Notes under the pieces: generated by a model | The model's input: only the letters and a program-made list of their open reading frames with translations | Databases searched by the model: none | What the model was told of the DNA's origin: nothing | Program-made: the position numbers and the translations under genes | IMG/VR virus record: IMGVR_UViG_3300045988_167502 | DNA length: 47,470 bases | From: a virus | Direction: 5' to 3' (one strand) | In this document: piece by piece, positions 156 through 47,155 of the stretch | Layout of the letters: the number at the start of each line of letters is the position of its first letter | Numbering within the stretch: position 1 is the first letter of the stretch

Positions 156-1319
156 ATGGTTACAAAAACAATGGACGGGTGTAGCTACTCCGAACTATGG
201 GTGTCCCCTGCCAACTGGCAAAAAGCTACTAAAAAAGACTTGGATAAAGATTGGTACGTGCAATGCGTTTTCTTTGACCCTCGTTTTGAAAAGAAATACC
301 CTAAGGGCTTCCCCTATCGAAAAAAGGCTAACAGACCTAATACTATAGAGGAACGAAAAGCGATGATTTCTTTTCTTCTTAAAAACATTCCTCATCAACT
401 TAATAATGGATTTAACCCGATATTAAAAAAGTACGTACAAGTTCACAAGGAGGGACTTTATCCTGAATTGCACTTTATTGAGGCTTTTAGGCGTGCATTG
501 GAAATAAAAGTAGGTACTAAAAAGCACCTATACGAAATACAATGCGCTATTAATAGACTTGAAAAGGCGTGTGAAGCCCTCGATTTGCAGACAGTTAAAA
601 TAAAGGACTTGCGCAGGGTAGATTTGAAGCGTATGCTCGACTGGTTGCGATTATCCGACAAATACTATAATAGGTTCGTGATATACTTTTCAAGTCTATA
701 CCGTGAGTTGATAGAGTACGAATGCTGCGAAAGTAATATCACAAGGGATATTTACCCTAAAAAGGTGATTAAAGAAGTCCGTACTATACTTACCGCTGAT
801 GAACTCATAAAAGTAAAAAACCACGTTCGATTTATTAATCCTGATTTTTATAGGTATATGATGATATTCCTATATTCAGGTGCACGTAATACCGAGCTTT
901 TCAGATTACAACGCAAAGATGTAGATTTGGACAAACAGGAGTTTGTAATACTGCTTGAAAAAGGCGGGCAGTACAAACGATGTACAAAGGTGATATTGTC
1001 TCCTGCATTAGAGTTTTGGAAAGAGATATGTAACAAGTGTAAAAGCGATAACGACTATCTTTTTGCACTTGATTTTGTTCCTAACAAGAAAATGGGTCAT
1101 ACCGAGATTGTTACCCGCTTTTGGAAGCGACACGTAAAGGATAAATTAGGCATTGAAGCTGATTTTTACGCCCTCAAACACTATATGCTTGATAACTTGG
1201 ACAGTGATACGGCTATGCTTTTAGCTTCGCACACTAACCAAAACACAACGGCTATATACCAAGTGAACAAAGCTAAAAGGGAGAGAGAGCGGCTGAAGCA
1301 GTTGGATATACAGATATAG
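156..1319 (+). CDS. int: tyrosine recombinase / phage integrase
   Basis: 387-aa ORF next to attL. Carries SGARNTELFRLQRKDVDL (Arg box) and a C-terminal HTNQNTTAIYQV (His...Tyr) motif. Confidence 0.9.
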   Translation: MVTKTMDGCSYSELWVSPANWQKATKKDLDKDWYVQCVFFDPRFEKKYPKGFPYRKKANRPNTIEERKAMISFLLKNIPHQLNNGFNPILKKYVQVHKEGLYPELHFIEAFRRALEIKVGTKKHLYEIQCAINRLEKACEALDLQTVKIKDLRRVDLKRMLDWLRLSDKYYNRFVIYFSSLYRELIEYECCESNITRDIYPKKVIKEVRTILTADELIKVKNHVRFINPDFYRYMMIFLYSGARNTELFRLQRKDVDLDKQEFVILLEKGGQYKRCTKVILSPALEFWKEICNKCKSDNDYLFALDFVPNKKMGHTEIVTRFWKRHVKDKLGIEADFYALKHYMLDNLDSDTAMLLASHTNQNTTAIYQVNKAKRERERLKQLDIQI

Positions 1320-1344: not shown

Positions 1345-1401
1345 GTAGTATTTTTAGCAAGTATTTTTTACTTAGTATTTTGCCAAGTAAAAATATTTTT
1401 A

Positions 1402-1409
1402 TACTTTTG
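1402..1409 (+). promoter_or_regulatory. -7 box TACTTTTG (TAnnTTTG)
   Basis: Matches the Bacteroidota sigma-A -7 consensus, 27 nt upstream of the ATG at 1436. Confidence 0.55.
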
Positions 1410-1627: not shown

Positions 1628-2154
1628 GTAGAAAGTATAATTTTATATACTCTAAATTAGTAGAAGATAATGATGACGTTGTAGGGCATATAGCATATTC
1701 CCTGTATAAGAATGAAAAAATAGAGTTTATAGAAACTTTTAAAGAAAAACACGGAACCGAACCTACAGAATTAGATTTAGAACCTTTTCATATATCATCT
1801 TGTACTAATGGAAGTTTGGAGCGTTTTAAACGAATGGCTATTGTGATATTACAAGAGTTCACAAATGAATTGCTTGGAAGAACTATAAAAGATATAGAGC
1901 ATAATGTAATATCAAATCATAAGAAATACCTAAGAGAAACTGTAGATGAAATTAAACCTCCAAGCATAGGAATGTCTTATCTACACGGCATTTTACAAAG
2001 TGTTTTAGGTGCTTTTCTTTTTTTGTTACTTATGGCAGGAATTATATTTGCTTTTAATCTAAACAAAAAAGGAACTACTATATCTATTAATGATAGTAGT
2101 ATGAATGTAGAACAAACTACCATTAAGGATAGTATAAATGGCAATAAGAAATGA
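1624..2154 (+). CDS. hypothetical protein with C-terminal transmembrane anchor
   Basis: 176 aa with the hydrophobic stretch GILQSVLGAFLFLLLMAGIIFAF. ATGA overlaps on both sides. Confidence 0.55.
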   Translation: MSRKYNFIYSKLVEDNDDVVGHIAYSLYKNEKIEFIETFKEKHGTEPTELDLEPFHISSCTNGSLERFKRMAIVILQEFTNELLGRTIKDIEHNVISNHKKYLRETVDEIKPPSIGMSYLHGILQSVLGAFLFLLLMAGIIFAFNLNKKGTTISINDSSMNVEQTTIKDSINGNKK

Positions 2155-2618
2155 AAAAAATAGTATTATTACTGATTGCCCTGCTCGCTGTGGGGTGCTC
2201 GAAAAGTGAGGAGAAACAAGAAGATTTTAGCCAATATAAACTGAATGTACCTGAGTGGTTAGTTGGTAGGTGGGAATATAAAGAATATCTTATTGACTAT
2301 TCTTTTGAATTTACAAAAGATGATTATAGAGTATTTAAAAATAGTTATTTTGAGGCTCGACAATCGCGATTAGTTGAACAAAAAGAATACTCTTTTAAAT
2401 TTAAAGAAGATAATGTGCATACGTATTATTTTATAGAGTTTTTACCTAATAATGGTGAATATTACAAACATTATTACGAGTGGACAGAATGGAGCGCCCC
2501 CAGTTCATTTTTTGAGAACAAACAATCTTTTAAAATCGTTTATACACAAGTAGACAAGTATGGTTCAGACATAAAAGTTATATCAGAAAGGAAAAATTGG
2601 TATAAGAAAGTAAAATAA
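2151..2618 (+). CDS. putative lipoprotein
   Basis: Signal peptide MKKIVLLLIALLAVGC with a lipobox Cys. Translationally coupled to the upstream ORF. Confidence 0.6.
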   Translation: MKKIVLLLIALLAVGCSKSEEKQEDFSQYKLNVPEWLVGRWEYKEYLIDYSFEFTKDDYRVFKNSYFEARQSRLVEQKEYSFKFKEDNVHTYYFIEFLPNNGEYYKHYYEWTEWSAPSSFFENKQSFKIVYTQVDKYGSDIKVISERKNWYKKVK

Positions 2619-2641
2619 AAGCCCTCTCAACGAGGGCTTTT
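2617..2641. terminator. bidirectional terminator AAAAGCCCTC-TCAAC-GAGGGCTTTT
   Basis: 10-bp stem flanked by an A-run and a T-run, between convergent genes. Confidence 0.7.
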
Positions 2642-2642
2642 A

Positions 2643-5600
2643 TTATGTGCGTATTTTTATACCTTTGGTAGTGAGTTCATCTATCCCTCTTTTTACCCCT
2701 GCAAGGTCAGACTCCATTTTATGAAGTTTATAAGTATTTAACTCAATACCAGAAAGGTGTTTGAGTTGTTGAGCCGAGAATGTTTGTAAAAACTTGTGCA
2801 TTTCAGTAAACTCCTTGACGGTTTGTAACATCGCATTTTTACTTTCCGCACCTATTTGTGTGAGTAGCCTAAATTGTCCGTTCAATTCGTCTGCACTGTC
2901 TTGGCTCATTCGTGCAAATCCTTTTTCTACTGCGTTCCTACCATTTTTATCATCAAACATTTTAATACCTGATTGTTCCAAAGCGTCAAACATAGCTTTT
3001 GCCTTTTGTTCTCCTTTTTGAATTTCGGGTTTTATAATGTTATTTACAAATTCAACAGTTTTGTTTTTTACCTTTTCATACACTTGCTCATTGCTAAGTC
3101 CTATTGATGATGCGTATATGTTATCCACATCATTTTGGAACTTAGAAAAAATTTCTTTTATTTTCTCGGTAACTAACGTTTGTTTGATTACGTTTTTCAT
3201 TACACGGGCAACAGTTTGACCAAAATTTTCAAACGCATTATTTCCTTTTTCTACAGCTGAAAGAATGCTATCAGCAAAACCAGTCCCTAATTCACCAAAC
3301 GTTTGACTTGTATATTCAGAGATTGTTTTTTTGTATTCTTTTAATTGATTATACAAATCTTTCGCTTTTTGTATTTGTTCTCCTGCGTAGTCGATATTAT
3401 CACGTCCAAAAGACATTAAATTAGCATCTGCCTTACTAATTTTTTCTAAGAAATCATAATCAATGTTACCTAATTCATCAACGAAAGGTTTAATTTTGTC
3501 CTTAAACGCTTTTGTCATTTCTACTTTTTCTTCACCCCAAAAAGGAATACCCAAAGGACCCTTTTGCCAAACCCACCGTGTTCTATAACCGTCAAATACT
3601 TGTGTATTTTGTACATCTATAAGGTCGTTACGAAGTTTTTTTACTTTATCATTGTAGTTTTTAATAATGTCAAGTTGTTTCCCAATTTGATTAGTAGTCA
3701 AAGAATTAGAATGTTTTTCCCCTTTCAATATACGTTCATCATAAAGTTCATTTATTCTCTTTTCGTTCTGATATTGTTCTTGTTTCCACATTCTCTCCTT
3801 TTGACGGGCTCTTTCTTTATCACTCTCTATTTTCTGAACAAAACCATATACTGCTCCTATAATACCTCCAATTGCACCTCCTATGGGGCCGGCTGAACTT
3901 CCTATTTGGGCAAAAGAAATAGCCTTATTGACTATTTCTCCCATTTCTTTTATCCCTTTACCGAATTCTCTTAGTGAAGCGTTTCCTGTACTTTGTCCCA
4001 ATCGCTCAAATTCGTCCCCTAATTGAGAGAATTGTCCTGTGATTGATTGTGCCGACGACAACATACCGTTGAACGCTTCCTGCCATTCAGCGGTATTGGG
4101 TTTGGCTTTGAATAGATTTTTGATGTTTGTACCGAGTTTGCCAAAAACGGTATCGCTACGCTCGGCTGTCTCTCTTGTTTGTTCAAGTTGCTGGCGTAGG
4201 CTTTGGATATATTCTACATTGTCCTTATCGCCCATATCAAGGTTGCTCGCCAACCGGTCTATTTCAGCTTCTGCCTCTGCTATGGTTTGGCGTATTTCCT
4301 TGATGGTCTTTTTGCGCATATTCTCAAAGAGTTTAGCAATGGCTGTACCCTCTTTTTTGTAGAGTATATCCAACTTTTTGAGTTCTCGTGCTTTTTCATC
4401 TTGTGCTTTTTTGACTTGTGGAGCGTCTGCGCCTAATTTAGCTTGCAAAGCGGTAATATCGGCATTGTATTTCTCCTCAATAGCTTTACGTTGGTCGGTG
4501 TAGGTTTGGTACTTTTCTAATAAGTCCTTATACACTTGTTCTTGCTGTATACGTTGGTACTCGACATTGTCGGATAAAAGTGTCTTTTCATTTTCAGCAA
4601 GACGTGCTTTTTCGGCATTAATAGCTTCAGTATTGGTATCAAAGGCTTGTCCCTTTTTCCATTTGCCTTGTGCTTCTGCTTTTTGTTTTTCGGTTTCGAT
4701 GAATGCGTTTAGCTGGTCTTCTGAACGTCTTCTGATTTCCTCTTCTTGCTTGTCGTATTCTAATTGAATGATAGCAAGGCGTTTGTCTGCTCCGTCTTGC
4801 ATTATCTTAATGCGCGCTTCTTCTTGCGCAAAAAGGTCGTCTTGAACTTGGCGGTTGTGGTCTCTTTGGGCTTTATCAGTGTCGAACTCTGGGAGGGTGC
4901 TTTTAGTAGTTATTCTTTTCGTATTGCTTTTAGCTGATAAATCATCTCCTGTACCCTTTTTGTACTCTTCAAGAAGTGTTTTTAATTTAGCCCTTTTTTC
5001 GTCTAATTTATTTAATTCCTCAGTACTTATATTCGTGCCTCTTTTATTTCTTGCCTCTGCTTCATTTATCTGTTTTTGTAGAGCCAAAATCTCATTCTTC
5101 TTTGCAACAAAATCAGTAGTTTGGATTTTAGCTTGTTCAATCATTTTTATATGTTCTTTGTATGCCTGATTGAAACGTCCCAACTCGTTAAAGTTGTATT
5201 TAAGAAAAGGATTTTGAATATCGTCTGTTATTTTGAAATTACTACCTACTGATGGTGATTTTTTACTATTATATGCGTCATTGATTTGCTTTCTTATCTT
5301 GTCTAACTCTGCTTTGCTTTTGCCATTGAGAGAGTTTGCAAATTGACTCACATCAATACCTACTACCACATTTTGTTGTTTTTGGAGTACTAACTTATCT
5401 CTTTCAATTTCTTTTTTTAGACGGTCGATTTCTCTTTGAGTACTCATAGCAATTCGACTGTCAGACGCTTGCATTTTTACCAACTTTTCTATTTGGGACT
5501 CTTTGGCTTTGATAGCTTCTTGAGTTTTTCCTATTGCGTCACGAGACATATTTTCATTCATTGTCTCATAACGTCCGTTTAATTCTTTAAGTACTTGAGA

Positions 5601-25034: not shown

Positions 25035-25751
25035 TTATTGAATTATTGAGTGTATAAACTCACGACCTTTTTCAGTCCAAACAGTGGAGGAACTTGTACG
25101 GGTCTCACCTTGACTATCTGTATAAGTATGGGTAACCGTTTTTGTGTAGCCTTTATCTTGGTGGTGATGATACAACAACCATTGACCGCCTTGCTTGTAC
25201 TGCACTTTTAATTCGTGTAGCCTCTTATTGAGCGTTACAGCACTCATACCAAGTTCTTTTGCGATTTGGTTAGCGTTGTAGGTGCTTTTAGACGTTAAAA
25301 CATCTTCATAATACGCAACCTTTGGGGCTTGCTTTTGCAACTCGACACGCTGTAAGTCATTTTGCGCTTGTAGTCGTTCTTTGGCTTCTACTTCTTCTAA
25401 AAGAGACTGTAACGCCTCTTTATAGGTAGTAGGTAACGCAAACTTACCGTTTCTTAATTGCTTTTCACACTCAATAAAATACTGGCGAGCCATTTTGCCC
25501 CTTTCAGAGCGTTGCAACATTGAAATTTCTTTTGCACAATCAAGGGTAAGGGCATAGTCTATAAGTGCTTGATTTGCAAGGGTGTTAAAAAATTCACACC
25601 CTTGATAATCAATATTTTCAGTAAAACCATACTGTAACATTCTTTCGAACCAACTACTAAACCTTTCAGTAATTTCTAAGAATTTGTGTAATTCCCTTGC
25701 TGATACTGCTTGATTGCCGTTTTGTTCGGTGATTTTTATTAACTCTTTCAT
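25035..25751 (-). CDS. antirepressor-like protein (AntA/BRO-type N-terminus plus KilA-C domain)
   Basis: AVSARELHKFLE...FSSWFERMLQYGF, then APKVAYYEDVL...IAKELGMSAVTLNK. Confidence 0.7.
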   Translation of the reverse strand: MKELIKITEQNGNQAVSARELHKFLEITERFSSWFERMLQYGFTENIDYQGCEFFNTLANQALIDYALTLDCAKEISMLQRSERGKMARQYFIECEKQLRNGKFALPTTYKEALQSLLEEVEAKERLQAQNDLQRVELQKQAPKVAYYEDVLTSKSTYNANQIAKELGMSAVTLNKRLHELKVQYKQGGQWLLYHHHQDKGYTKTVTHTYTDSQGETRTSSSTVWTEKGREFIHSIIQ

Positions 25752-25753
25752 AG

Positions 25754-26146
25754 CTACGCACTTTTTTTAGTTAATAATTTATCACAAACTAAGGTAACGC
25801 TTTGAAAGTAGTCGCTGTCTTCGGGTAACAAGCCTACTAACATCTCAAAGAGTGCCATTACTTTATTGCTTTGGTTTAGCAAGTAGTTACGAGGCTCATC
25901 TTCATTAATACCGTCGTGAAGCGTTTCGAGGCTGTCTCTTAATACCTCTATTAGGTGCTTTAACTTGTAATCTAACAAGTCGTCAGCTGGTTTGATTGAC
26001 CTTAATAAGGTCGCAAACTTTTGGCTTTGCGCTGCGCTACTATTGTTCACGCTTTGCGCTTGTGTTGAAGGTTTGAACATAATTTGTAAAATTAACGGCG
26101 TGGGTAGGTGTTGTTCAAACCTTGCTTTTGCAAATTTGCTATACAT
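25754..26146 (-). CDS. hypothetical protein
   Basis: 130-aa ORF. Its 5' end carries two copies of a 12-bp repeat. Confidence 0.5.
   Translation of the reverse strand: MYSKFAKARFEQHLPTPLILQIMFKPSTQAQSVNNSSAAQSQKFATLLRSIKPADDLLDYKLKHLIEVLRDSLETLHDGINEDEPRNYLLNQSNKVMALFEMLVGLLPEDSDYFQSVTLVCDKLLTKKSA
26068..26079 (+). repeat. AAGGTTTGAACA copy 1
   Basis: Exact 12-mer, also at 26225..26236 and inverted at 26112..26123. Confidence 0.8.
26112..26123 (-). repeat. AAGGTTTGAACA copy 2 (inverted)
   Basis: The plus strand reads TGTTCAAACCTT. Confidence 0.8.
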
Positions 26147-26224
26147 TACTATATAGCTACACCTTCACGCCGTGAGATATGAAAATAATATATTTACTAA
26201 TATATTAAGGTATAATTACCTTAC

Positions 26225-26236
26225 AAGGTTTGAACA
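26225..26236 (+). repeat. AAGGTTTGAACA copy 3, adjacent to the -7 box
   Basis: Ends 3 nt before the -7 box at 26240..26247. Confidence 0.8.
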
Positions 26237-26239
26237 CTG

Positions 26240-26247
26240 CAAAGGTA
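26240..26247 (-). promoter_or_regulatory. -7 box (reverse complement TACCTTTG)
   Basis: Upstream of 25754..26146. Confidence 0.5.
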
Positions 26248-26298
26248 CGATAAATTTTTGAAAGTGCAAGTAATTTGCGTACTTTTTTTTGATTTTTT

Positions 26299-26613
26299 TT
26301 ACATAGGTAATAGATTGAACTTTTTAAAGCAACGGAACTCGTGGCTCTCGGTATCAAAGTATATTTGTACGGTGTCATTGCTTTTGCGGTTATGCTGGGT
26401 AGGAGGTATCAAATCGGGGCGTAATGTACCCCACGCTTCACGGGTTGAGCCGTCTACTTTTTGAAAATAAAAGCGTACTATCTGGGTGCTCATTTTGGAT
26501 TTGAGTTTGATATTTGCCCACGCTTTTTTGAGGCATTCACTGAATGATAGCCCCGTTTGGCGTGCAAACTGCCAAGCAAGGTAAAAGACTGTTTTTTTAT
26601 CGGTATTTTTCAT
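26299..26613 (-). CDS. DUF2693-like (SH3 beta-barrel) phage protein
   Basis: The pattern FYFQKVDGSTREAWGTL...IYFD...FRCF resembles DUF2693 (from memory). Confidence 0.4.
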   Translation of the reverse strand: MKNTDKKTVFYLAWQFARQTGLSFSECLKKAWANIKLKSKMSTQIVRFYFQKVDGSTREAWGTLRPDLIPPTQHNRKSNDTVQIYFDTESHEFRCFKKFNLLPM

Positions 26614-26680
26614 TTTGATATAGGTTTTAAGGTTATTACTAAGATTTTGAGCCTTTTTGCGCCTTGCTCAGGGCGTTTGA

Positions 26681-26992
26681 TTAAATACTTAGAATACTTA
26701 CATAATTGTTGTACTCTTTTTGCAAGAAAGAAAAGTATTTAATAAATTTCTTTTCATTCTCTTTTGTGAATGTACCTTCAATTTTAGGGCACTTAACATT
26801 AATTTTAAGAGCTGTAAGAAGGCAGTTTGTAAGGTTTTGTAACTTTTCATTTAGAACATTCATAGCCTCGTTGCTACCATATTCATAAACGCCCTCTTTT
26901 AGATTTTCAAGTACTTGTTCAATTGGTTTTACAAAGCCTATTTGTAAACCAAGATAAAGGTATAATTCTTCTTTTTTGTCTGTTGCATTCAT
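26681..26992 (-). CDS. hypothetical protein
   Basis: First ORF after the promoter at 27037..27044. Confidence 0.5.
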   Translation of the reverse strand: MNATDKKEELYLYLGLQIGFVKPIEQVLENLKEGVYEYGSNEAMNVLNEKLQNLTNCLLTALKINVKCPKIEGTFTKENEKKFIKYFSFLQKEYNNYVSILSI

Positions 26993-27036
26993 TTTTGATA
27001 TTGTTTTAAAGTGTTATTACTTATTGTTTGACGATG

Positions 27037-27044
27037 CAAAGGTA
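27037..27044 (-). promoter_or_regulatory. -7 box (reverse complement TACCTTTG)
   Basis: Overlaps the GTAATTAC palindrome at 27042..27049. Confidence 0.5.
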
Positions 27045-27104
27045 ATTACATTTATAATTACGTGCAAATATTTTGTGTTAAATTTTTGTTAAATGTAATT
27101 ACAT
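27042..27104. promoter_or_regulatory. three RTAATTACRT sites (27042..27051, 27054..27063, 27095..27104); candidate operators
   Basis: GTAATTAC is an 8-bp perfect palindrome. Its two perfect copies are 53 bp apart, between divergent -7 boxes. Confidence 0.4.
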
Positions 27105-27130
27105 AGGTTATTTTATTGGGTATTGCTTTG

Positions 27131-27138
27131 TATCTTTG
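27131..27138 (+). promoter_or_regulatory. -7 box TATCTTTG
   Basis: Upstream of the RHH gene. Confidence 0.5.
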
Positions 27139-27162
27139 CAACGGAATATAATGCTTAACATT

Positions 27163-27354
27163 ATGGCGCGTATAAAAGATAAAGTTTTTCAGATAAGAGC
27201 TTCAGAAACATTCTTGATGCTCCTCAAAGAATTAGCGGACAAAAAAGGAATGTCGCAAGCGAACCTTATTGAGTACCTCGTACGCAAGGAGGCGGATAGT
27301 ATGCAGATGAAAGAACAGTTTCAGCAGGAGGAGACAAAAGAGATTGAAAAATAA
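27163..27354 (+). CDS. ribbon-helix-helix (CopG/Arc/MetJ-like) DNA-binding protein
   Basis: A beta-strand KVFQIRASE followed by two helices. The track TTG start at 27136 lies inside the -7 box, so the ATG at 27163 (or 27151) is preferred. Confidence 0.6.
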   Translation: MARIKDKVFQIRASETFLMLLKELADKKGMSQANLIEYLVRKEADSMQMKEQFQQEETKEIEK

Positions 27355-27366
27355 AACAATTTTAAT

Positions 27367-28269
27367 ATGGAAAATAAACATAACATATCTCACGAAGGTA
27401 TTTTAAATTTAGGAGGTATTTCTATACCTTGCTATGTACTTCAAGACGGTACAAGGGTATTGTCAGGGCGTGGTATGCAAGAAGCTTTAAAAATGGTAGA
27501 TGAGTCGGAAGATGGTAAGCAAACAGCAGGGACACGATTAAACAGATATTTGAATCAAAAAAGCCTTAATCCTTTCATTTACAAGGGTAAGGAGCCGGAC
27601 CACTTTAATCCTATAATTTGCTATAAGGGTACTCAAAAAATCAATGGATATGAGGCTACTATTTTAGCGGATATATGTGAGGCTTTTCTTGAAGCTCGTA
27701 ACTATATAGAGCTTTCTACACGACAAAGAGTTATAGCTGACCAATGTGAAATTCTTATTAGAGGTTTTGCAAGGGTAGGGATTACTGCTCTTGTTGATGA
27801 GGCTACAGGTTATCAGTATGAAAGGGAACGGGATGCTTTGCAATCTATCTTAAAAGCATATATAAATGAGGAGCTTCTAAAATGGCAAAAGTTATTTCCT
27901 GATATTTTTTATTATGAAATATTCCGATTAAATAATTGGGATTATACTGTAAAAGGGATTCAAAAGCGTCCAGGTGTAATAGGAAAATGGACAAATGAGC
28001 TTATATACAAACAGTTGCCAAAAGGTGTATTAGAAGAGTTGAAAAATAGGACTCCTAAAAGTTCAGAGGGTAATTATACAGCTCGTTTCTTTCAAAGTTT
28101 AACACCTGATATAGGGCACCCTGCTTTGACTGCACAAATTTATAAGGTAATTGGTTTGATGAATATTTCTAAAAATTGGAGTGAATTCAAAAGCAATTTC
28201 AATAAAATGGTCAATAGAAATAATGGTCAAACTGAAATAGACTTTGATAGTGTAGAAGAGGATTTATAA
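27367..28269 (+). CDS. P63C-domain-like phage protein
   Basis: HEGILNLGGISIPCYVLQDGTRVLSGRGMQEAL resembles P63C-family proteins (from memory, not searched). Confidence 0.5.
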   Translation: MENKHNISHEGILNLGGISIPCYVLQDGTRVLSGRGMQEALKMVDESEDGKQTAGTRLNRYLNQKSLNPFIYKGKEPDHFNPIICYKGTQKINGYEATILADICEAFLEARNYIELSTRQRVIADQCEILIRGFARVGITALVDEATGYQYERERDALQSILKAYINEELLKWQKLFPDIFYYEIFRLNNWDYTVKGIQKRPGVIGKWTNELIYKQLPKGVLEELKNRTPKSSEGNYTARFFQSLTPDIGHPALTAQIYKVIGLMNISKNWSEFKSNFNKMVNRNNGQTEIDFDSVEEDL

Positions 28270-28280
28270 AGTCATTTAGT

Positions 28281-28317
28281 AAAAACTACCGCCTCCAACA
28301 TTCGTTAGAGGCGGTAG
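28281..28317. terminator. hairpin CTACCGCCTC/GAGGCGGTAG preceded by an A5 run
   Basis: 10-bp stem between convergent genes. The U-tract is on the minus-strand side only. Confidence 0.6.
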
Positions 28318-28351
28318 CAAAACCAAATGAAGAAATTATTAATGAAAGAGA

Positions 28352-28612
28352 CTATTGGCAACGATGAATAAGGTCAGCTTCTATTTGTTTGAACACGTAA
28401 CTATATCCTATAGTTTTGCTCAATATTGCGTGCTGTTTGAGGTAATAAGATATATTAGAAAGGGGAATTTGTAAATATTCTGCTATCTTGGATTGAGAGG
28501 CGTTATCGTGCTTTCTTGCCAATCCGCAAAATATTTTTTTATTATCAAGGCTACCCTTCAAAGGTTCTCCTGTCACAGCTTCAATAGATTGTTGAATTTC
28601 TTTTAAAATCAT
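28352..28612 (-). CDS. small HTH protein
   Basis: SQSKIAEYLQIPLSNISYYLKQ is helix-turn-helix-like. Confidence 0.45.
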   Translation of the reverse strand: MILKEIQQSIEAVTGEPLKGSLDNKKIFCGLARKHDNASQSKIAEYLQIPLSNISYYLKQHAILSKTIGYSYVFKQIEADLIHRCQ

Positions 28613-28637
28613 AGTATTATAAATTAGGGGTTATACA

Positions 28638-29021
28638 TTATCTTCTTCCTTTAAAGCCCTCAATCTTTGGGGCAAAATAGTCGTGTATGCTGATGAAATC
28701 TTCTATTACTTTCTGAAACTCCTCAAAGGTATAGCACACGGCGTAGGTATGCCCTAATGTGGTTACTTTCTTCTGAAACTCTTTTTGGTTGTCGGTTTGT
28801 CGGTTACCTTTTACTTTCATCTCGATATATAGGCTCTTCCCTTGTGGGAGTAGAACTACCAAGTCAGCCACCCCTGCTAATACCCCCTCTGCTTTAAGCC
28901 GTTGTGCTTCACGCACGTTGCGACTTCCACCATTAGGAACTGCATAGATTACAAGGTGCGGATATTGGTATCTGAACCAACGCACACAGGAGGATTGAAG
29001 TGTACTTTCTTGGAGTTTCAT
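28638..29021 (-). CDS. VRR-NUC domain nuclease
   Basis: PD-(D/E)XK signature GVADLVV...LYIEMKV. Confidence 0.75.
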   Translation of the reverse strand: MKLQESTLQSSCVRWFRYQYPHLVIYAVPNGGSRNVREAQRLKAEGVLAGVADLVVLLPQGKSLYIEMKVKGNRQTDNQKEFQKKVTTLGHTYAVCYTFEEFQKVIEDFISIHDYFAPKIEGFKGRR

Positions 29022-29044
29022 TTTTTATGTTTAAATCTATGCTG

Positions 29045-29052
29045 CAAAGGTA
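29045..29052 (-). promoter_or_regulatory. -7 box (reverse complement TACCTTTG)
   Basis: 24 nt upstream of the start at 29021. Confidence 0.5.
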
Positions 29053-29114
29053 CAAAACATATTAAATAATTCCTAATATTTTTTGTTGTAACTTTTTGTT
29101 AATCAAAGTTTTGC

Positions 29115-29132
29115 AACGTTAAAAGTAACGTT
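29115..29132. promoter_or_regulatory. palindromic operator candidate AACGTTA-AAAG-TAACGTT
   Basis: Perfect 7-bp inverted repeat with a 4-bp spacer. The flank TTTTGCAACGTTAA is shared with 44444..44461. Confidence 0.5.
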
Positions 29133-29180
29133 ATGTTTTGATGTTTGTTAAAGTCAAAGTGCTGAATATCAAAACGCCCA

Positions 29181-29211
29181 AAAACAAAAAAGACGAGCAA
29201 AAGCCCGTCTT
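29181..29211 (-). terminator. rho-independent terminator after 29237..29437
   Basis: AGACGAGC/GCCCGTCT stem with one mismatch. The A-run on the plus strand gives a U-tract on the minus strand. Confidence 0.55.
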
Positions 29212-29236
29212 ATTGGTGAAAAATATTTTGTTATAT

Positions 29237-29437
29237 TTATAACATTTCTATTTTTCTGAGTTTTTCGAGGTAGAAATCACGAATCCGTTGGTAATCTTCC
29301 TCAGTGAACTTGTTATCTCTTAATCGTAGTCGCTTGTGCGTCGCCGTTGATACACTCTTCTGTATCGCACGTGCTACCTTGCTATCGGATATCTCCAATT
29401 GCTGAATGATGTATATTACTTTGTCGTGCGGTGTCAT
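29237..29437 (-). CDS. hypothetical small protein
   Basis: 66-aa ORF in the operon. Confidence 0.45.
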   Translation of the reverse strand: MTPHDKVIYIIQQLEISDSKVARAIQKSVSTATHKRLRLRDNKFTEEDYQRIRDFYLEKLRKIEML

Positions 29438-29439
29438 AA

Positions 29440-29784
29440 TTATCCTTGTGTTATCATATTAGTATTATACCATTCCCACGCTTCATCTAAGAATTGTGTT
29501 TCGGATATTTTGGGGGCTAATTCCCCTCCTGTTATCTTTACGTTATTCTGAATTATTATGAGTTTAAACTTCTCATATTCATTGAATACATATAACTTCT
29601 GAGGCTTATCCTTTAATTTTCTGTTAAGAACTATCTGCTGTGTGCGCTCTCTAATTACCAATATCAGAGATAAGTAGAGAGGTGAGTAGATGAAGTGAAA
29701 GTTATTAGGCAAATGCTCAGGCTCGGGCTGTAATGCCAATAAGAATTTTGGCATTTTGAATTCAAAAAGTTTGTTATTGTCCAT
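29440..29784 (-). CDS. hypothetical protein
   Basis: 114-aa ORF in the operon. Confidence 0.5.
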   Translation of the reverse strand: MDNNKLFEFKMPKFLLALQPEPEHLPNNFHFIYSPLYLSLILVIRERTQQIVLNRKLKDKPQKLYVFNEYEKFKLIIIQNNVKITGGELAPKISETQFLDEAWEWYNTNMITQG

Positions 29785-29886
29785 ATTATTTTGTATTTTT
29801 GCCCCTCATTTCTAAGGATTTTTAAATCGTTAGACTTGTTTTAATTTTACAAGTAAGCCCCTAATGTAGTGTTAGGGGCTTTTAAT

Positions 29887-30459
29887 TTATCTAATAAAGC
29901 GATACTTAGGCAATAAATTGCGACTGCCCCCTACTTTGAATTTACTAACCATTTCGCCATAATAGTTAATAGGTTCATCAAGGCTAATTGTGGTAACATT
30001 GCGCCCATTGTAATCGTATTGGTGCGCACTGTAACCTACTGACATATTTGGTAATCGCCATACCCCCCAATTCATAGAGTTAAGATAATACAATATTCTT
30101 CTGATATTATCTATATTAGCCTCGAATACTTTACCTTCTTTTATTTCATTTTCGAGAATGCGAAAGTCAGCTTCTAAATCTTGCTCTTCTTTCTCATTCT
30201 GAATTTTCTTTGCTTCGTTTTTTCTCTTGCAGAAATTGCAGAATTTAGTGTACGCTTCATTCAAATTTTCGTTGGTAATTTCACCATCTACATCAATGAA
30301 TGTTACAAAGTATGGTTTTTCGGTGAAATTTTGTTCCTCTACCTTTTCATAAGGCACTTCATTAACTTGTGGGTAACCTTGCTCTTTCTTTTTGAAAGTA
30401 ACATTACCTGCTACAATATAGGTGTAGCGCTTTGTGGTGTAAAATTCTAATTTCATCAT
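29887..30459 (-). CDS. hypothetical protein
   Basis: 190-aa ORF. Confidence 0.5.
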   Translation of the reverse strand: MMKLEFYTTKRYTYIVAGNVTFKKKEQGYPQVNEVPYEKVEEQNFTEKPYFVTFIDVDGEITNENLNEAYTKFCNFCKRKNEAKKIQNEKEEQDLEADFRILENEIKEGKVFEANIDNIRRILYYLNSMNWGVWRLPNMSVGYSAHQYDYNGRNVTTISLDEPINYYGEMVSKFKVGGSRNLLPKYRFIR

Positions 30460-44475: not shown

Positions 44476-44483
44476 CAAAGATA
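44476..44483 (-). promoter_or_regulatory. -7 box (reverse complement TATCTTTG), early leftward promoter
   Basis: Consensus match 51 nt upstream of the start at 44425. Confidence 0.55.
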
Positions 44484-44579
44484 CAAACATTTACTAACAT
44501 AACAAATATTTTTTACAAAAATGTTAGTTTTTATTTGTTATATTTTTTTTAATTAATTGATTTTTAAATAAATAGAAAT

Positions 44580-45950
44580 ATGAGTTTTTTTGATTTTTTG
44601 AAGAAAAAAGAGTTAGAAAGAATAAAATACTTAGAAAATAAGGTGAAAGATTTAGAAACCCAAACCGATTATTTGTCTAAATCTCTAACAAAGTATTCTC
44701 CATTAATAGATTTAGAAAGGGAAGCTCAGAAATTGCAGGATGATATAAATAAGATAGAGAAAGATAAAATATTAATTCTAAATCAATATGAACAACTAAA
44801 AAAACAATACCAAACGGCTCTTGTAACTTATGAGGAATTAAAAAAGAAAATAAGTGTATTTGAAGAAGACTTAGAAATGGCAGAGTATGGAGTTTATCAA
44901 CCTCACTTCAGTTTTGATACTTCTGAGGAGTATAAACAGAAAATACTTTTTTATAGGAATGAGGCTAAAGCTATGATAAAAGAGGATACTGCTGTAAACG
45001 GTGGTCATAATATCACTTGGAATGGTAGCCTTTCAAAAGGACAAGCTATGGTGAAAAGGGAAAAACAACTGATGTTGCGCGCTTTTAACGGCGAAACAGA
45101 TAGTTTTATAGCTAATGTAGATTGGAATAATATTCTAAAACTGGAAGAGCGATTGAATAAATCATTTGAAGCTATAAATAAGGTATATAAGGAACAAGGA
45201 TTAGCTATTTCTGAAGCGTATAAAAGTTATAAAGTATGGGAACTACAACTAACTTATGAATATAAAAAGAAGTTACAAGAAGAACGGGAAGAACAAAGGG
45301 CTATTCGAGAACAAATGAGAGAGGAGGAACGTGCTGAAAAAGAACTTGAAGCAGCAAGAATAAAGGCTGAAAAAGAGGAAATTATGTATATAAAAGCCCT
45401 CGAAAAGGCACGTAAAGAAGTAGGAACTGCCATAGGCAAAAAACAAGAGGAATTATTACAAAGAATAGCGGAACTTGAGGCTGGGCTTTCAGGGGTTGAA
45501 ACCTTGAAACAAAAAGCTATATCAATGGCACAGCAAACAAAAATGGGTTATGTTTATGTAATTTCTAATATAGGTGCTTTTGGTGATGATGTATATAAAA
45601 TAGGGATGACACGTAGGATTGAACCTACAGACAGAGTAAAAGAACTTGGTGATGCAAGTGTCCCTTTTCCATTTGATATTCACGCTATGATTTTTTCAGA
45701 AAACGCTCCAGAACTTGAAACAAAGCTGCATAACATTTTCGTAGACAATCGAGTGAATATGACTAACTATAAAAGGGAGTTTTTTAATATTTCATTAGAA
45801 CGGATAGAAGAAGAGGCTAAAAAATTAGGCGCAAAGGTAGAATTTACTAAACTTGCAGAAGCAAAAGAATATAGAGAAACACAAGCGTTGAAAAAACAAC
45901 TCTCACATCCAATAAAAGATGAAAAAACAGAGTTTCCTAAAACCATTTAG
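44580..45950 (+). CDS. DUF4041-like plus T5orf172 (GIY-YIG-superfamily) domain protein
   Basis: YGVYQPHFSFDTSEEYK...LRAFNGETDSFIANVDWNN, an E/K/R coiled coil, and a C-terminal GYVYVISN...VYKIGMTRR...RVKELG...PFPFD...KLHN. Confidence 0.75.
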   Translation: MSFFDFLKKKELERIKYLENKVKDLETQTDYLSKSLTKYSPLIDLEREAQKLQDDINKIEKDKILILNQYEQLKKQYQTALVTYEELKKKISVFEEDLEMAEYGVYQPHFSFDTSEEYKQKILFYRNEAKAMIKEDTAVNGGHNITWNGSLSKGQAMVKREKQLMLRAFNGETDSFIANVDWNNILKLEERLNKSFEAINKVYKEQGLAISEAYKSYKVWELQLTYEYKKKLQEEREEQRAIREQMREEERAEKELEAARIKAEKEEIMYIKALEKARKEVGTAIGKKQEELLQRIAELEAGLSGVETLKQKAISMAQQTKMGYVYVISNIGAFGDDVYKIGMTRRIEPTDRVKELGDASVPFPFDIHAMIFSENAPELETKLHNIFVDNRVNMTNYKREFFNISLERIEEEAKKLGAKVEFTKLAEAKEYRETQALKKQLSHPIKDEKTEFPKTI

Positions 45951-46197: not shown

Positions 46198-46205
46198 CAA
46201 AGGTA
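46198..46205 (-). promoter_or_regulatory. -7 box (reverse complement TACCTTTG) abutting the repressor ATG
   Basis: Consensus match. Overlaps the first base of the ATG at 46205. Confidence 0.45.
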
Positions 46206-47155
46206 TGGAAAATAATTCAAAAAAACAAACAAATGTTAGTACTGGAAGTTCTAAGAGATTAGAAGAACTATTATTACATTTGAAAATGAGTTATAATAAG
46301 TTTGCGAAGGAAATAGGGCTAAAAGATAATGTTAAAGTCTATCACATAAAAAATGGTAGAAACGAGATAAGTGCCGATTTAGCAAATGCCATTACTGCAA
46401 CTTTCCCTCAAATTAGTTATCAATGGCTTCTTACTGGCAACGGTGAAATGCTCGTACAAAATACTCTTAAAGAAGAACCCGAAGAAGAAGAGGAAACATA
46501 CCTAAGAGCCGAGCGTAACAGATATGCCTTATCCTTGCAACGCATTCAAGAACTCACCAACTTACCTATGAAAAAACTCAAAGCCTACGACAATGGCGAT
46601 GAGAATATACCTGATGATATATTGGAAGCTTTTGAGAACCTTTTTCAGAGGATAGAAAACGAATATAACGAGAGTGAGGAACAAGACGACTCTTTACCAG
46701 TGCTTATAACTGATGATATGGTTTCCAATGTAAAAGTACCTTTCTATGAGGTAGATTTTGCAGGAGGCTTTAATTCCCCTGAAATGTTTTCACAAGTGAA
46801 ACCTTCGTTTGTTATCAGCTCTCCAAGTTTTGCGGGGGCAGACTTCGCTTGTGTGCTCACAGGAAACTCAATGTCAAAACGCATAAAAAGTGGTTCTGTA
46901 ATAGGTCTTAAAGAAATTAAAGAATGGTGGGAGTATTTCCCTACTAATGAAATATACGCCATAGTAACCAAAAATGGGTTACGAACTGTAAAAATTGTAA
47001 AAAGAAGTAAGAAAGAAGGGTATATAGACCTTATACCAGACCCATTACCTGAATTTAATAATCCTTCGTTTGAAATGGAAACTATACGAATGAATTATGT
47101 AATAGGATTTTATCAGGTAATAGCACACGCATTCTATGAAAGAATGGCTTTTTAG
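46205..47155 (+). CDS. CI/LexA-type repressor (phage CI HTH plus S24 peptidase)
   Basis: N-terminal FAKEIGLKDNVKVYHIKNGRNEIS...WLLTGNGEM. C-terminal VDFAGGF (Ala-Gly site), TGNSM (Ser) and VKIVKR (Lys). Confidence 0.8.
   Translation: MENNSKKQTNVSTGSSKRLEELLLHLKMSYNKFAKEIGLKDNVKVYHIKNGRNEISADLANAITATFPQISYQWLLTGNGEMLVQNTLKEEPEEEEETYLRAERNRYALSLQRIQELTNLPMKKLKAYDNGDENIPDDILEAFENLFQRIENEYNESEEQDDSLPVLITDDMVSNVKVPFYEVDFAGGFNSPEMFSQVKPSFVISSPSFAGADFACVLTGNSMSKRIKSGSVIGLKEIKEWWEYFPTNEIYAIVTKNGLRTVKIVKRSKKEGYIDLIPDPLPEFNNPSFEMETIRMNYVIGFYQVIAHAFYERMAF

What the first reader, a model, noticed from the sequence alone, without database searches (positions are those of the whole stretch)
27131..28317. 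Inverted two-gene module: ribbon-helix-helix protein plus P63C-like protein
Two plus-strand ORFs (63-aa RHH, 300-aa P63C-like, 12-nt gap) are embedded among minus-strand early units. They have their own -7 box and a downstream 10-bp hairpin. A small RHH DNA-binding protein followed by a larger effector-like protein has the same architecture as type II toxin-antitoxin and several two-gene defence loci. The P63C domain has no established biochemical role. The module sits at a divergent promoter region carrying three palindromic GTAATTAC-type sites.
Basis: partly seen in the sequence, partly recalled or inferred. Interest (0 to 1): 0.65.

Follow-up and report, generated by a model that had tools for sequence, protein, structure and literature searches.

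The report
Phage repressor gene with hitch-hiking P63C cargo
The two genes are real, but they are not a toxin-antitoxin-style pair: the small one is a core Arc-like repressor of this Capnocytophaga-type prophage with its own operators, and the P63C gene is an optional, widely travelling cargo gene of unknown function slotted in behind it.

Summary
The "two-gene TA/defence module" reading fails its own refutation test, because the pair is not co-conserved.

- **RHH is core and works alone.** In about 60 related phage loci the RHH gene is a solo plus-strand gene in the same place. Only 3 loci carry P63C.
- **P63C is an insertion.** It lies exactly between the RHH stop codon and a conserved hairpin. 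Near-isogenic phages lack it.
- **The slot takes other cargo.** One example is a PD-Lambda-2_B-like protein.
- **RHH reads the palindromes.** Its DNA-reading beta-strand covaries perfectly with the upstream palindrome (VFQIRAS with GTAATTAC, xLNIRVS with GTATATAC). The sites overlap a consensus Bacteroidetes promoter for the divergent operon (WYL_2, Ant, towards terminase).
- **P63C travels widely.** Relatives sit behind unrelated regulators (CI-like, HTH_3, another RHH), in the Stx-phage nin region, and as the passenger gene of IS1595 insertion sequences.
- **P63C fold.** The model shows a Bro-N/KilA-N-like N-domain plus the P63C domain.

P63C function is untested. My best guess is a repressor-co-transcribed DNA-binding exclusion factor analogous to BstA.

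The parts
27037..27068 (-). Consensus Bacteroidetes-type promoter P(-): TTTG-N20-TAccTTTG. The -7 box is at 27037-27044 and the -33 TTTG at 27065-27068. It heads the divergent minus-strand operon.
   Evidence: Pattern scan: 15 matches in the window against 3.95 expected. This one lies in the intergenic region upstream of the 26992 start.
27042..27049 (.). Operator O1, the perfect palindrome GTAATTAC. It overlaps the -7 box of P(-).
   Evidence: It covaries with the RHH beta-strand in 62 of 63 typed loci.
27054..27061 (.). Operator subsite O1' (ATAATTAC, 7/8). It lies 12 bp centre-to-centre from O1, inside the P(-) spacer.
   Evidence: Sequence. The homologous position changes together with the O1 type in relatives.
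27095..27102 (.). Operator O2, the perfect palindrome GTAATTAC. It lies about 30 nt upstream of the plus-strand -7 box.
27131..27138 (+). -7 box TAtcTTTG of the RHH promoter P(+).
   Evidence: Sequence. It is conserved as TA(t/c)cTTTG in relatives. No canonical -33 TTTG lies at 17-23 nt.
27163..27354 (+). RHH (Arc/CopG-like) repressor gene, 63 aa. It is a core gene of this phage group.
   Evidence: It is solo in relatives.
27367..28269 (+). P63C-family cargo gene, 300 aa: a Bro-N/KilA-N-like N-domain, a long helix bearing the ALVDEATGYQ motif, and the P63C domain.
   Evidence: Insertion boundaries are shown.
28285..28318 (-). Conserved GC-rich hairpin. It is terminator-like for the convergent minus-strand early operon and is also the 3' boundary of the RHH/P63C unit.
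   Evidence: In relatives without cargo it lies 25-43 nt after the RHH stop.
25035..26992 (-). First genes of the divergent operon presumably under RHH control: 103 aa (26681-26992), WYL_2 (26299-26613), 130 aa (25754-26146) and Ant with AntA+KilAC domains (25035-25751).
   Evidence: In relatives the synteny continues to PAPS_reduct and terminase.
28352..28612 (-). Last gene of the convergent early operon (86 aa). It marks the right border of the cargo slot.

Best explanation
The locus combines two independent things.

**(1) A core phage regulator.** A 63-aa Arc/CopG-type RHH repressor is transcribed against the flow of the lytic genes from its own Bacteroidetes-type promoter.
- It recognises the 8-bp palindromes GTAATTAC: O1 plus a 7/8 subsite one helical turn away, and O2 53 bp further on.
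- O1 and O1' lie in the -7 box and spacer of a consensus minus-strand promoter. That promoter heads the operon 103aa-WYL_2-130aa-Ant, which continues towards terminase.
- A bound RHH should therefore shut that promoter and probably tune its own.
- The early minus-strand operon ends at the hairpin at 28285-28318, and the CI-like repressor sits 19 kb away. The RHH is therefore most likely a second, Mnt/Arc-like immunity repressor that is active in the lysogen. This step is an inference.

**(2) A cargo gene ('moron').** The P63C ORF has been inserted between the RHH stop codon and the hairpin, so it is read from the repressor's transcript.
- It does not need this RHH as a partner.
- The protein has a Bro-N/KilA-N-like N-domain plus a P63C C-domain, and is probably DNA-binding.
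- The most likely function, inferred and about 35% likely, is a single-gene exclusion or abortive-infection factor made whenever the repressor is made. This is the niche and architecture class of BstA.
For: **Shown**
- RHH is solo at the same position in most of about 60 related loci. The RHH-to-next-gene gap is about 110 nt, against 1004 nt in the window.
- Near-isogenic phages L039 and L040 (RHH 94-97% identical, right flank identical) lack P63C. The indel runs from the RHH stop to about 15 nt before the hairpin.
- The same slot holds other cargo. L068 has an HTH+M78 protein (PD-Lambda-2_B, E=1.6e-19) plus a 167-aa protein. L082, L085 and L087 share a gap of about 910 nt; L082 was read and holds a 259-aa protein. 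L055 has 110-aa and 157-aa proteins.
- Covariation is perfect. The VFQIRAS strand goes with GTAATTAC in 28/28 loci. The xLNIRVS strand goes with GTATATAC in 34/35 loci. The types never cross, and this includes L081 on a divergent backbone.
- The varying residues align with positions equivalent to Arc Q9 and N11. That those Arc residues contact bases is from my own knowledge of Arc.
- The P(-) promoter matches the consensus and overlaps O1 and O1'.
- The RHH fold is supported.
- P63C homologues sit behind other regulators: cI in ST104, a repressor in Javan515, CI-like HTH-S24 proteins in L011 and L012 (read by eye, no Pfam run), HTH_3 in L008, and an unrelated RHH_1 in L007. L007 and L008 are syntenic relatives.
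- There is no conserved neighbour in 74 genomic loci other than IS1595 transposase, found at 23 of 71.
- Bro-N, KilA and Mx8 p63 are the structural matches.
- BstA occupies the same cI-N slot as ST104 orf23 (PMC8585504).

**Inferred:** lysogenic expression of RHH, repression of P(-), and the function of P63C.
Against: - There is no expression or binding data, so the timing of RHH expression (lysogen or early lytic, as for P22 arc) is unknown.
- P(+) lacks a canonical -33 element.
- P63C has no PADLOC hit. Similarity to BstA is only marginal: hhalign probability 18% over the N-domain, and no BstA_C domain.
- In phage 933W the homologue lies in the nin region among lytic genes.
- In cellular genomes it is an IS1595 passenger with overlapping stop and start codons. 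This points as much to a role in element DNA transactions as to defence.
- The covariation counts are not phylogenetically independent.
Confidence: 0.6

Rival explanations
1. An arc-ant-like unit. The RHH is an Arc analogue that autoregulates an operon whose second gene is an antirepressor-type protein, the P63C protein, of the Bro-N/KilA-N class. That protein would inactivate a repressor, either the phage's own CI-like protein or those of competing prophages, or otherwise reprogramme transcription.
For: - The gene order, RHH first and then a roughly 300-aa Bro-N-class protein from one promoter, is that of P22 Pant-arc-ant. That order is from my own knowledge of P22.
- The best structural match of the RHH is Arc, at 33% identity.
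- There is a weak PHROG 'anti-repressor Ant' hit at 1.3e-7.
- Mx8 p63 is annotated as a potential antirepressor.
- BFVD matches include 'antirepressor' and 'repressor domain' proteins.
- The 933W homologue lies next to roi.
Against: - The protein has no ANT, KilAC or AntA domain and no profile similarity to the window's own Ant.
- The phage already encodes a canonical Ant in the divergent operon.
- Placement directly behind CI-type repressors in many prophages would co-express a repressor with an antirepressor.
- 'Antirepressor' annotations of Bro-N proteins are mostly untested.
Confidence: 0.2
2. The P63C protein is an accessory DNA-binding factor for mobile-element DNA transactions: transposition, integration/excision, or control of element replication. 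It would then not be a defence or regulatory effector.
For: - In 23 of 71 genomic loci the gene lies directly downstream of an IS1595/ISXO2-like transposase. In many of these the stop and start codons overlap by 3-7 nt.
- Terminal inverted repeats enclose both genes in L100, L110 and L121.
- In streptococcal prophages and satellites, L009 and Gordonia phage Petra it lies next to integrases.
- The top PDB fold match is the DNA-break-binding protein DdrC, but only weakly (E=0.02).
Against: - In the window and in ST104 it is far from any recombinase.
- No IS remnant flanks it in the window.
- IS passenger genes are often unrelated to transposition.
- TM-scores to DdrC are low, at 0.25-0.31.
Confidence: 0.15
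3. One reading: a type II toxin-antitoxin-like or two-gene defence module in which the RHH is the cognate antidote and regulator of a toxic P63C effector.
For: - The order is a small RHH first and a larger protein second, with a 12-nt gap and palindromes at the promoter.
- RHH folds also match the antitoxins TacA, ParD, CopA and MazE.
- The RHH has a roughly 20-residue acidic C-terminal tail.
Against: - RHH occurs without P63C in about 90% of related phages, and the tail is conserved there.
- P63C occurs with unrelated regulators, with transposases or alone, and has no conserved small partner in 74 genomic loci.
- There is no match to toxin or defence families.
- The RHH operators overlap the promoter of a different, divergent operon.
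Confidence: 0.05

Closest known systems
P22 immI region (Mnt and Arc RHH repressors controlling Pant/ant)
   Same: - A small RHH repressor lies inside a block of oppositely oriented phage genes, apart from the main CI-type repressor.
- It has tandem palindromic operator subsites about one helical turn apart that overlap a divergent promoter.
- An Ant gene is under that control region.
- Arc is the best structural match, and the alignment is in register at the DNA-reading strand.
   Different: - There is one RHH gene here, not two.
- Sequence similarity to Arc is not significant (E about 1).
- The controlled operon runs on towards terminase and late genes in relatives.
- The gene behind the RHH is P63C, not an ANT-family protein.
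- The host is Bacteroidota, with TTTG/TAnnTTTG promoters.
BstA (prophage BTP1 abortive-infection protein; PMC8585504)
   Same: - Both are single proteins of about 300 aa with an N-terminal KilA-N/Bro-N-class domain and a distinct C-domain.
- Both are encoded immediately downstream of a prophage repressor and share its promoter.
- The P63C homologue ST104 orf23 occupies the same cI-N slot as bstA in BTP1.
   Different: - The window protein has no BstA_C (PF26567) domain.
- Profile-profile similarity is only marginal: probability 18%, E=1.4e-3, N-domain only.
- No phenotype and no aba-like self-immunity element is known for P63C proteins.
Mx8 p63 and Bro-N/KilA-N domain proteins (Iyer, Koonin and Aravind 2002 class; from memory, also cited in PMC8585504)
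   Same: - Both carry the P63C C-terminal domain, with Pfam E=5e-30 in the window protein.
- Whole-model Foldseek match to Mx8 p63 at E=1.3e-8, followed by many Bro-N, KilA and 'repressor domain' proteins.
   Different: - The N-domain of the window protein is too diverged for Pfam Bro-N to detect.
- tblastn similarity to Mx8 p63 is confined to residues 159-279, at 34% identity.
Type II toxin-antitoxin modules with RHH antitoxins (ParDE, TacAT, CopG-type)
   Same: Small RHH gene first, larger gene second, with palindromes at the promoter.
   Different: - The pair is not co-conserved.
- The second protein belongs to no toxin family.
- The RHH is a stand-alone core phage gene whose operators sit on another operon's promoter.
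IS1595-family insertion sequences with passenger genes
   Same: The closest non-Capnocytophaga relatives of the window's P63C protein (up to 66% identity) are passenger genes inside IS1595/ISXO2-like elements in Bacteroidota and other phyla.
   Different: The window copy has no transposase and no terminal inverted repeats. Only the ORF is present.

Membership tests
Ribbon-helix-helix (Arc/MetJ/CopG) repressors | Strand-helix-helix topology of about 45 residues | tested here: met
   AF2 model: extended residues 1-14, helix 15-28, helix 32-62, pLDDT 83.5. Top Foldseek hits are Arc, CopG, TacA and ParD, with probability 0.8-0.93 and TM(target) up to 0.78.
Ribbon-helix-helix (Arc/MetJ/CopG) repressors | Significant sequence match to an RHH family model | tested here: inconclusive
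   Pfam RHH_5, RHH_1 and RHH_4 at E 0.015-0.12, all below gathering scores. PHROG Arc-like repressor at 1.1e-3. The PDB profile hit to Arc is at E=0.94 but in register.
Ribbon-helix-helix (Arc/MetJ/CopG) repressors | Binds short palindromic or tandem operator subsites through the N-terminal beta-strand | tested here: met
   The evidence is indirect. There is perfect covariation of beta-strand residues with the palindrome type across 63 loci. Binding itself cannot be tested with these tools.
Type II toxin-antitoxin module | Antitoxin and toxin genes co-occur as an obligate pair | tested here: not met
   RHH is solo in most of about 60 related loci. P63C lies behind unrelated regulators or transposases, or has no conserved partner.
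Type II toxin-antitoxin module | Second gene belongs to a recognised toxin family | tested here: not met
   Pfam gives only P63C. NCBIfam and PADLOC give no hit.
Type II toxin-antitoxin module | Toxicity of the second protein, neutralised by binding to the first | not testable with these tools
   This needs expression assays. No complex prediction tool was available.
P63C domain proteins (PF10546) | Match to the P63C model above the gathering score | tested here: met
   104.4 bits against a cut-off of 26.1, residues 161-254. All 61 aligned relatives match.
Bro-N / KilA-N domain proteins | N-terminal Bro-N/KilA-N fold | tested here: inconclusive
   No Pfam Bro-N or KilA-N hit. The AF2 model matches many Bro-N, KilA and 'repressor domain' viral proteins at E 1e-3 to 1e-2 with probability up to 1.0. 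The APSES protein PCG2 is a weak PDB hit.
BstA abortive-infection proteins | BstA-like C-terminal domain (PF26567) | tested here: not met
   No PF26567 hit at E<=1. hhalign aligns only the N-terminal 114 columns, with probability 18%.
BstA abortive-infection proteins | Gene immediately downstream of, and co-directional with, a prophage repressor | tested here: met
   This holds in the window (behind the RHH) and in ST104, Javan515, L008, L011 and L012. BTP1 is the reference case.
BstA abortive-infection proteins | Abortive-infection phenotype with a DNA-based self-immunity element | not testable with these tools
   This needs phage challenge experiments.
P22-type arc-ant operon | Second gene is an ANT/KilAC/AntA-family antirepressor | tested here: not met
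   None of these domains is present in the P63C protein. There is no profile similarity to the window's own Ant.
Known anti-phage defence systems (PADLOC-DB v2) | Match of either protein to a defence-system model | tested here: not met
   No hit at E<=0.01 for RHH or P63C.
IS1595-family element with passenger gene | Adjacent DDE_Tnp_IS1595 transposase and flanking terminal inverted repeats | tested here: not met
   This is met in relatives L100, L110 and L121. In the window there is no transposase and no IR-like sequence at up to 3 mismatches.

The most novel reading that the evidence does not exclude
Full-length P63C proteins (Bro-N-like N-domain plus P63C) would be a new, very widespread family of single-gene exclusion or abortive-infection effectors. 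The family has about 2,900 clusters at 50% identity across many phyla. These genes would spread by riding on prophage repressor transcripts and as passengers of IS1595 insertion sequences. An insertion sequence would then be a vehicle for a phage-defence gene.
Probability: 0.25. Interest if true: 0.7.

Novelty: new member of a known kind. Interest (0 to 1): 0.42.

Why it matters
**The regulator.** The RHH gives a clean, testable example of immunity-type switching in a Bacteroidota phage. Two or three beta-strand residues change together with the central base pairs of an 8-bp operator that sits on a consensus TTTG/TAnnTTTG promoter. Few Bacteroidota phage regulatory circuits have been characterised.

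**The cargo.** The P63C gene marks a variable slot behind a repressor, the type of site where prophage defence genes such as rexAB and bstA are found. The family is large, highly conserved across phyla and uncharacterised. Its double life as a repressor-linked phage moron and an IS1595 passenger makes it a reasonable candidate for functional screening.

**The correction.** The locus should not be annotated as a toxin-antitoxin pair.

Tried and rejected
- **Nucleotide search.** Megablast of 26000-30000 against GenBank phages found no match.
- **Literature.** Searches for 'P63C', 'P63C domain' with phage, 'PF10546', and P63C with defence or antirepressor terms found no functional study. A search on IS1595 passenger genes found nothing specific to this gene.
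- **Defence and family models.** PADLOC and NCBIfam gave nothing for either protein.
- **Solved structures by sequence.** The P63C profile against the PDB gave only a marginal hit to the Trichomonas IBP39 DNA-binding domain (E=0.025). I did not rely on it.
- **Solved structures by fold.** Foldseek against the PDB with the whole P63C model gave only a weak hit to DdrC (E=0.02, TM 0.25-0.31). The multi-domain model (pTM 0.51) limits whole-chain matching. I had no prediction jobs left for separate domains.
- **RHH as the main lysogeny repressor.** Rejected, because a CI-like HTH+S24 protein is encoded at 46205-47155.
- **P63C as an Ant homologue.** Rejected.
- **Conserved downstream partner of P63C.** Rejected: 70 downstream neighbours hit 40 different Pfam families, and none recurs more than twice.
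- **IS remnants around the window copy.** None found.
- **Sigma-70 promoter scan.** Uninformative for this host type.
Full report
**1. What is there.**

The window is a complete contig of about 47.5 kb from a temperate phage of the Capnocytophaga (Bacteroidota) type.
- An integrase lies at 156-1319 (+).
- Almost all genes from 2643 to 44425 are on the minus strand.
- At the right end are a PD-Lambda-1 homologue at 44580-45950 (+) (PADLOC E=1.5e-159) and a CI-like HTH+Peptidase_S24 protein at 46205-47155 (+).

Inside the minus-strand block sit two plus-strand ORFs.
- The first is 27136/27163..27354. All homologues begin MAR..., so the conserved start is ATG 27163, giving 63 aa.
- The second is 27367..28269 (300 aa), 12 nt further on.

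**2. The two proteins.**

The 300-aa protein matches Pfam P63C at 5e-30 (residues 161-254) and PHROG 2384 at 3e-100.

The 63-aa protein is only weakly RHH by sequence.
- Its AlphaFold model has an extended N-terminus and two helices.
- Its structural neighbours are nearly all RHH proteins, led by P22 Arc and CopG.
- A profile search of the PDB aligns it in register with Arc.

The hairpin at 28285-28318 is real and very stable. It has a T-run only on the minus strand. It is thus primarily the terminator of the convergent early operon.

**3. The pair is not a unit.**

The RHH family is narrow: 196 clusters, all at least about 75% identical and from Capnocytophaga-type phages.

I looked up contigs for two RHH variants and scanned IMG/VR. 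In about 60 loci the RHH gene is a solo plus-strand gene between WYL_2-side genes and the 86-aa/VRR_NUC genes.
- The conserved hairpin lies 25-43 nt after its stop.
- The gap to the next gene is about 110 nt.
- Only the window, L038 (the same phage as L004) and L063 (the same as L006) carry P63C. There the gap is 1004 nt.

Alignments show the P63C ORF inserted between the RHH stop and the hairpin. Near-isogenic phages L039 and L040 have 94-97% identical RHH and an identical right flank, and they lack it.

Other phages carry other cargo in the same slot.
- L068 has a 421-aa HTH+M78 peptidase that matches PD-Lambda-2_B (E=1.6e-19), plus a 167-aa protein.
- L082 holds a 259-aa protein. L085 and L087 have a gap of the same size but were not read.
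- L055 has two small proteins of 110 and 157 aa.

In more distant but syntenic phages, P63C genes 77-80% identical to the window's sit behind an unrelated RHH_1 protein (L007) or an HTH_3 protein (L008).

**4. What the RHH does.**

GTAATTAC occurs only twice in the window, at 27042 and 27095. A 7/8 copy at 27054 lies 12 bp from the first.

Across 63 loci the RHH beta-strand comes in two types. K-VFQIRAS always goes with GTAATTAC (28/28). K-[T/S/A]LNIRVS goes with GTATATAC (34/35). The types never cross. L081 has a VFQIRAS strand on the otherwise xLNIRVS-type divergent backbone, and it also has GTAATTAC. The varying residues align with positions equivalent to Arc Q9 and N11. That those Arc residues contact bases is from my own knowledge of Arc. 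This is strong comparative evidence that the palindromes are the RHH's operators.

A scan for the Bacteroidetes promoter consensus TTTG-N17-23-TAnnTTTG finds 15 sites against 3.95 expected. One is on the minus strand at 27037-27068. O1 overlaps its -7 box and O1' lies in its spacer.

That promoter heads the 103aa-WYL_2-130aa-Ant genes. In relatives these continue to PAPS_reduct and terminase.

I infer that RHH represses this promoter and autoregulates from O2 near its own -7 box (27131-27138).
- The early operon terminates at the hairpin, and the CI-like repressor acts 19 kb away.
- A consensus promoter in front of Ant and the genes that lead on to terminase would need its own repressor in the lysogen.
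- The other plus-strand genes with an assigned function are lysogeny-type genes: int, CI and PD-Lambda-1.
- Lysogenic expression is therefore plausible but not shown.

**5. What the P63C protein is.**

The family is large: 2883 representative clusters at E<=1e-3. It is strongly conserved across phyla, at 40-66% identity between Bacteroidota, Cyanobacteria, Proteobacteria, Planctomycetota and others. It has an almost invariant motif, ALVDEATGYQxxR, plus R30.

The AlphaFold model (pLDDT 82, pTM 0.51) has three parts:
- a beta-rich N-domain (1-96);
- a long helix ending in the motif;
- the helical P63C domain.

Against viral models it matches Mx8 p63 (1.3e-8) and then many Bro-N, KilA and 'repressor domain' proteins. 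Against the PDB only DdrC appears, and weakly. There is no PADLOC, NCBIfam or second Pfam domain hit.

**6. Where P63C genes live.**

In prophages they often lie directly behind the repressor:
- ST104 orf23 lies between cI and gene 24;
- Javan515 and satellite Javan441 have it between a repressor and int;
- L011 and L012 have it behind proteins I read by eye as CI-like HTH-S24 repressors;
- Gordonia phage Petra has it in the lysogeny region.

In 933W the gene is in the nin region next to roi.

In cellular genomes, 23 of 71 upstream neighbours are IS1595/ISXO2-like transposases, and many of them overlap the P63C start. Terminal inverted repeats enclose transposase plus P63C in L100, L110 and L121. 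The gene is therefore an IS passenger. Downstream neighbours show no recurrent partner. The window copy has no IS remnants.

**7. Comparison with known systems.**

The RHH works like P22 Mnt or Arc, and its fold places it in the RHH superfamily. Sequence membership in any named RHH family is not significant.

The closest functional analogue of the P63C gene is BstA. BstA is a single KilA-N-class protein of about 300 aa, co-transcribed with a prophage repressor, that causes abortive infection (PMC8585504). In BTP1, bstA occupies the very slot that P63C occupies in ST104.

A profile-profile comparison of the two families aligns only the N-domains, with probability 18% and E=1.4e-3. The BstA C-domain is absent. 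The window protein is therefore not a BstA family member.

The arc-ant analogy, a role in element DNA transactions, and the TA reading are kept as rivals at about 0.20, 0.15 and 0.05.

**8. Verdict.**

The interpretation as a cognate two-gene TA or defence module is not supported. The locus is a core Arc-like repressor with a well-defined operator and promoter arrangement, plus an optional cargo gene of a widespread, uncharacterised mobile-element family.

This is a new member of known kinds. The open point of moderate interest is what P63C proteins do.

Noticed in passing
window 44580-45950 (+), with 46205-47155 (+): A 456-aa DUF4041+T5orf172 protein matches the PD-Lambda-1 defence protein almost full length (PADLOC E=1.5e-159). 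It lies between the early minus-strand promoter (44476-44506) and the CI-like HTH+S24 repressor. This looks like a prophage-borne defence gene in the immunity region.
   Followed up: partly
L100, L110, L121 (about 1960-4080); also L096, L101, L103, L106, L116, L117, L120, L130, L135 and others: Full-length P63C genes are passenger genes of IS1595/ISXO2-like insertion sequences in many phyla. The transposase stop overlaps or abuts the P63C start. Inverted repeats of 26-46 nt (core GGTAACTA...TTTACAC) enclose both genes, giving an element of about 2 kb.
   Followed up: partly
L068 2695-4466; L082 2724-3503; L055 2785-3637: The slot just downstream of the RHH gene is a variable cargo site in this phage group. 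It holds an HTH+M78 peptidase resembling PD-Lambda-2_B plus a 167-aa protein (L068), a 259-aa unknown protein (L082), or two small proteins (L055).
   Followed up: partly
window 25035-25751 (-): A canonical antirepressor (AntA + KilAC domains, PHROG 63 E=1e-62) is the fourth gene of the operon that diverges from the RHH control region. It is detected in only some relatives (about 7 of 64 loci by tblastn, several of them weak partial matches), so it is variable cargo.
   Followed up: partly
window 26299-26613 (-) and homologues in L007, L008, L028-L090: A WYL_2 (Sm-like SH3) protein of about 104 aa is conserved next to the RHH control region across the whole phage group, including distant relatives with different regulators. 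Its function is unknown.
   Followed up: no
L013 2272-2829 (Streptococcus prophage): A 185-aa ORF between the repressor and the P63C gene looks RelA/SpoT-like (small alarmone synthetase or toxSAS-like) by eye. It was not tested against any profile library.
   Followed up: no
L177 4113-5036 (BTP1 bstA) compared with L001 3809-4888 (ST104 orf23): In two P22-like Salmonella phages the same cI-to-N slot holds either bstA or a P63C gene. Both are proteins with a KilA-N/Bro-N-class N-domain, about 307 and 359 aa as annotated.
   Followed up: partly
window, whole: The Bacteroidetes promoter pattern TTTG-N17-23-TAnnTTTG occurs 15 times against 3.95 expected. One site lies at 44476-44506 (-), in front of the early operon, and one at 1379-1409 (+), after the integrase.
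   Followed up: no
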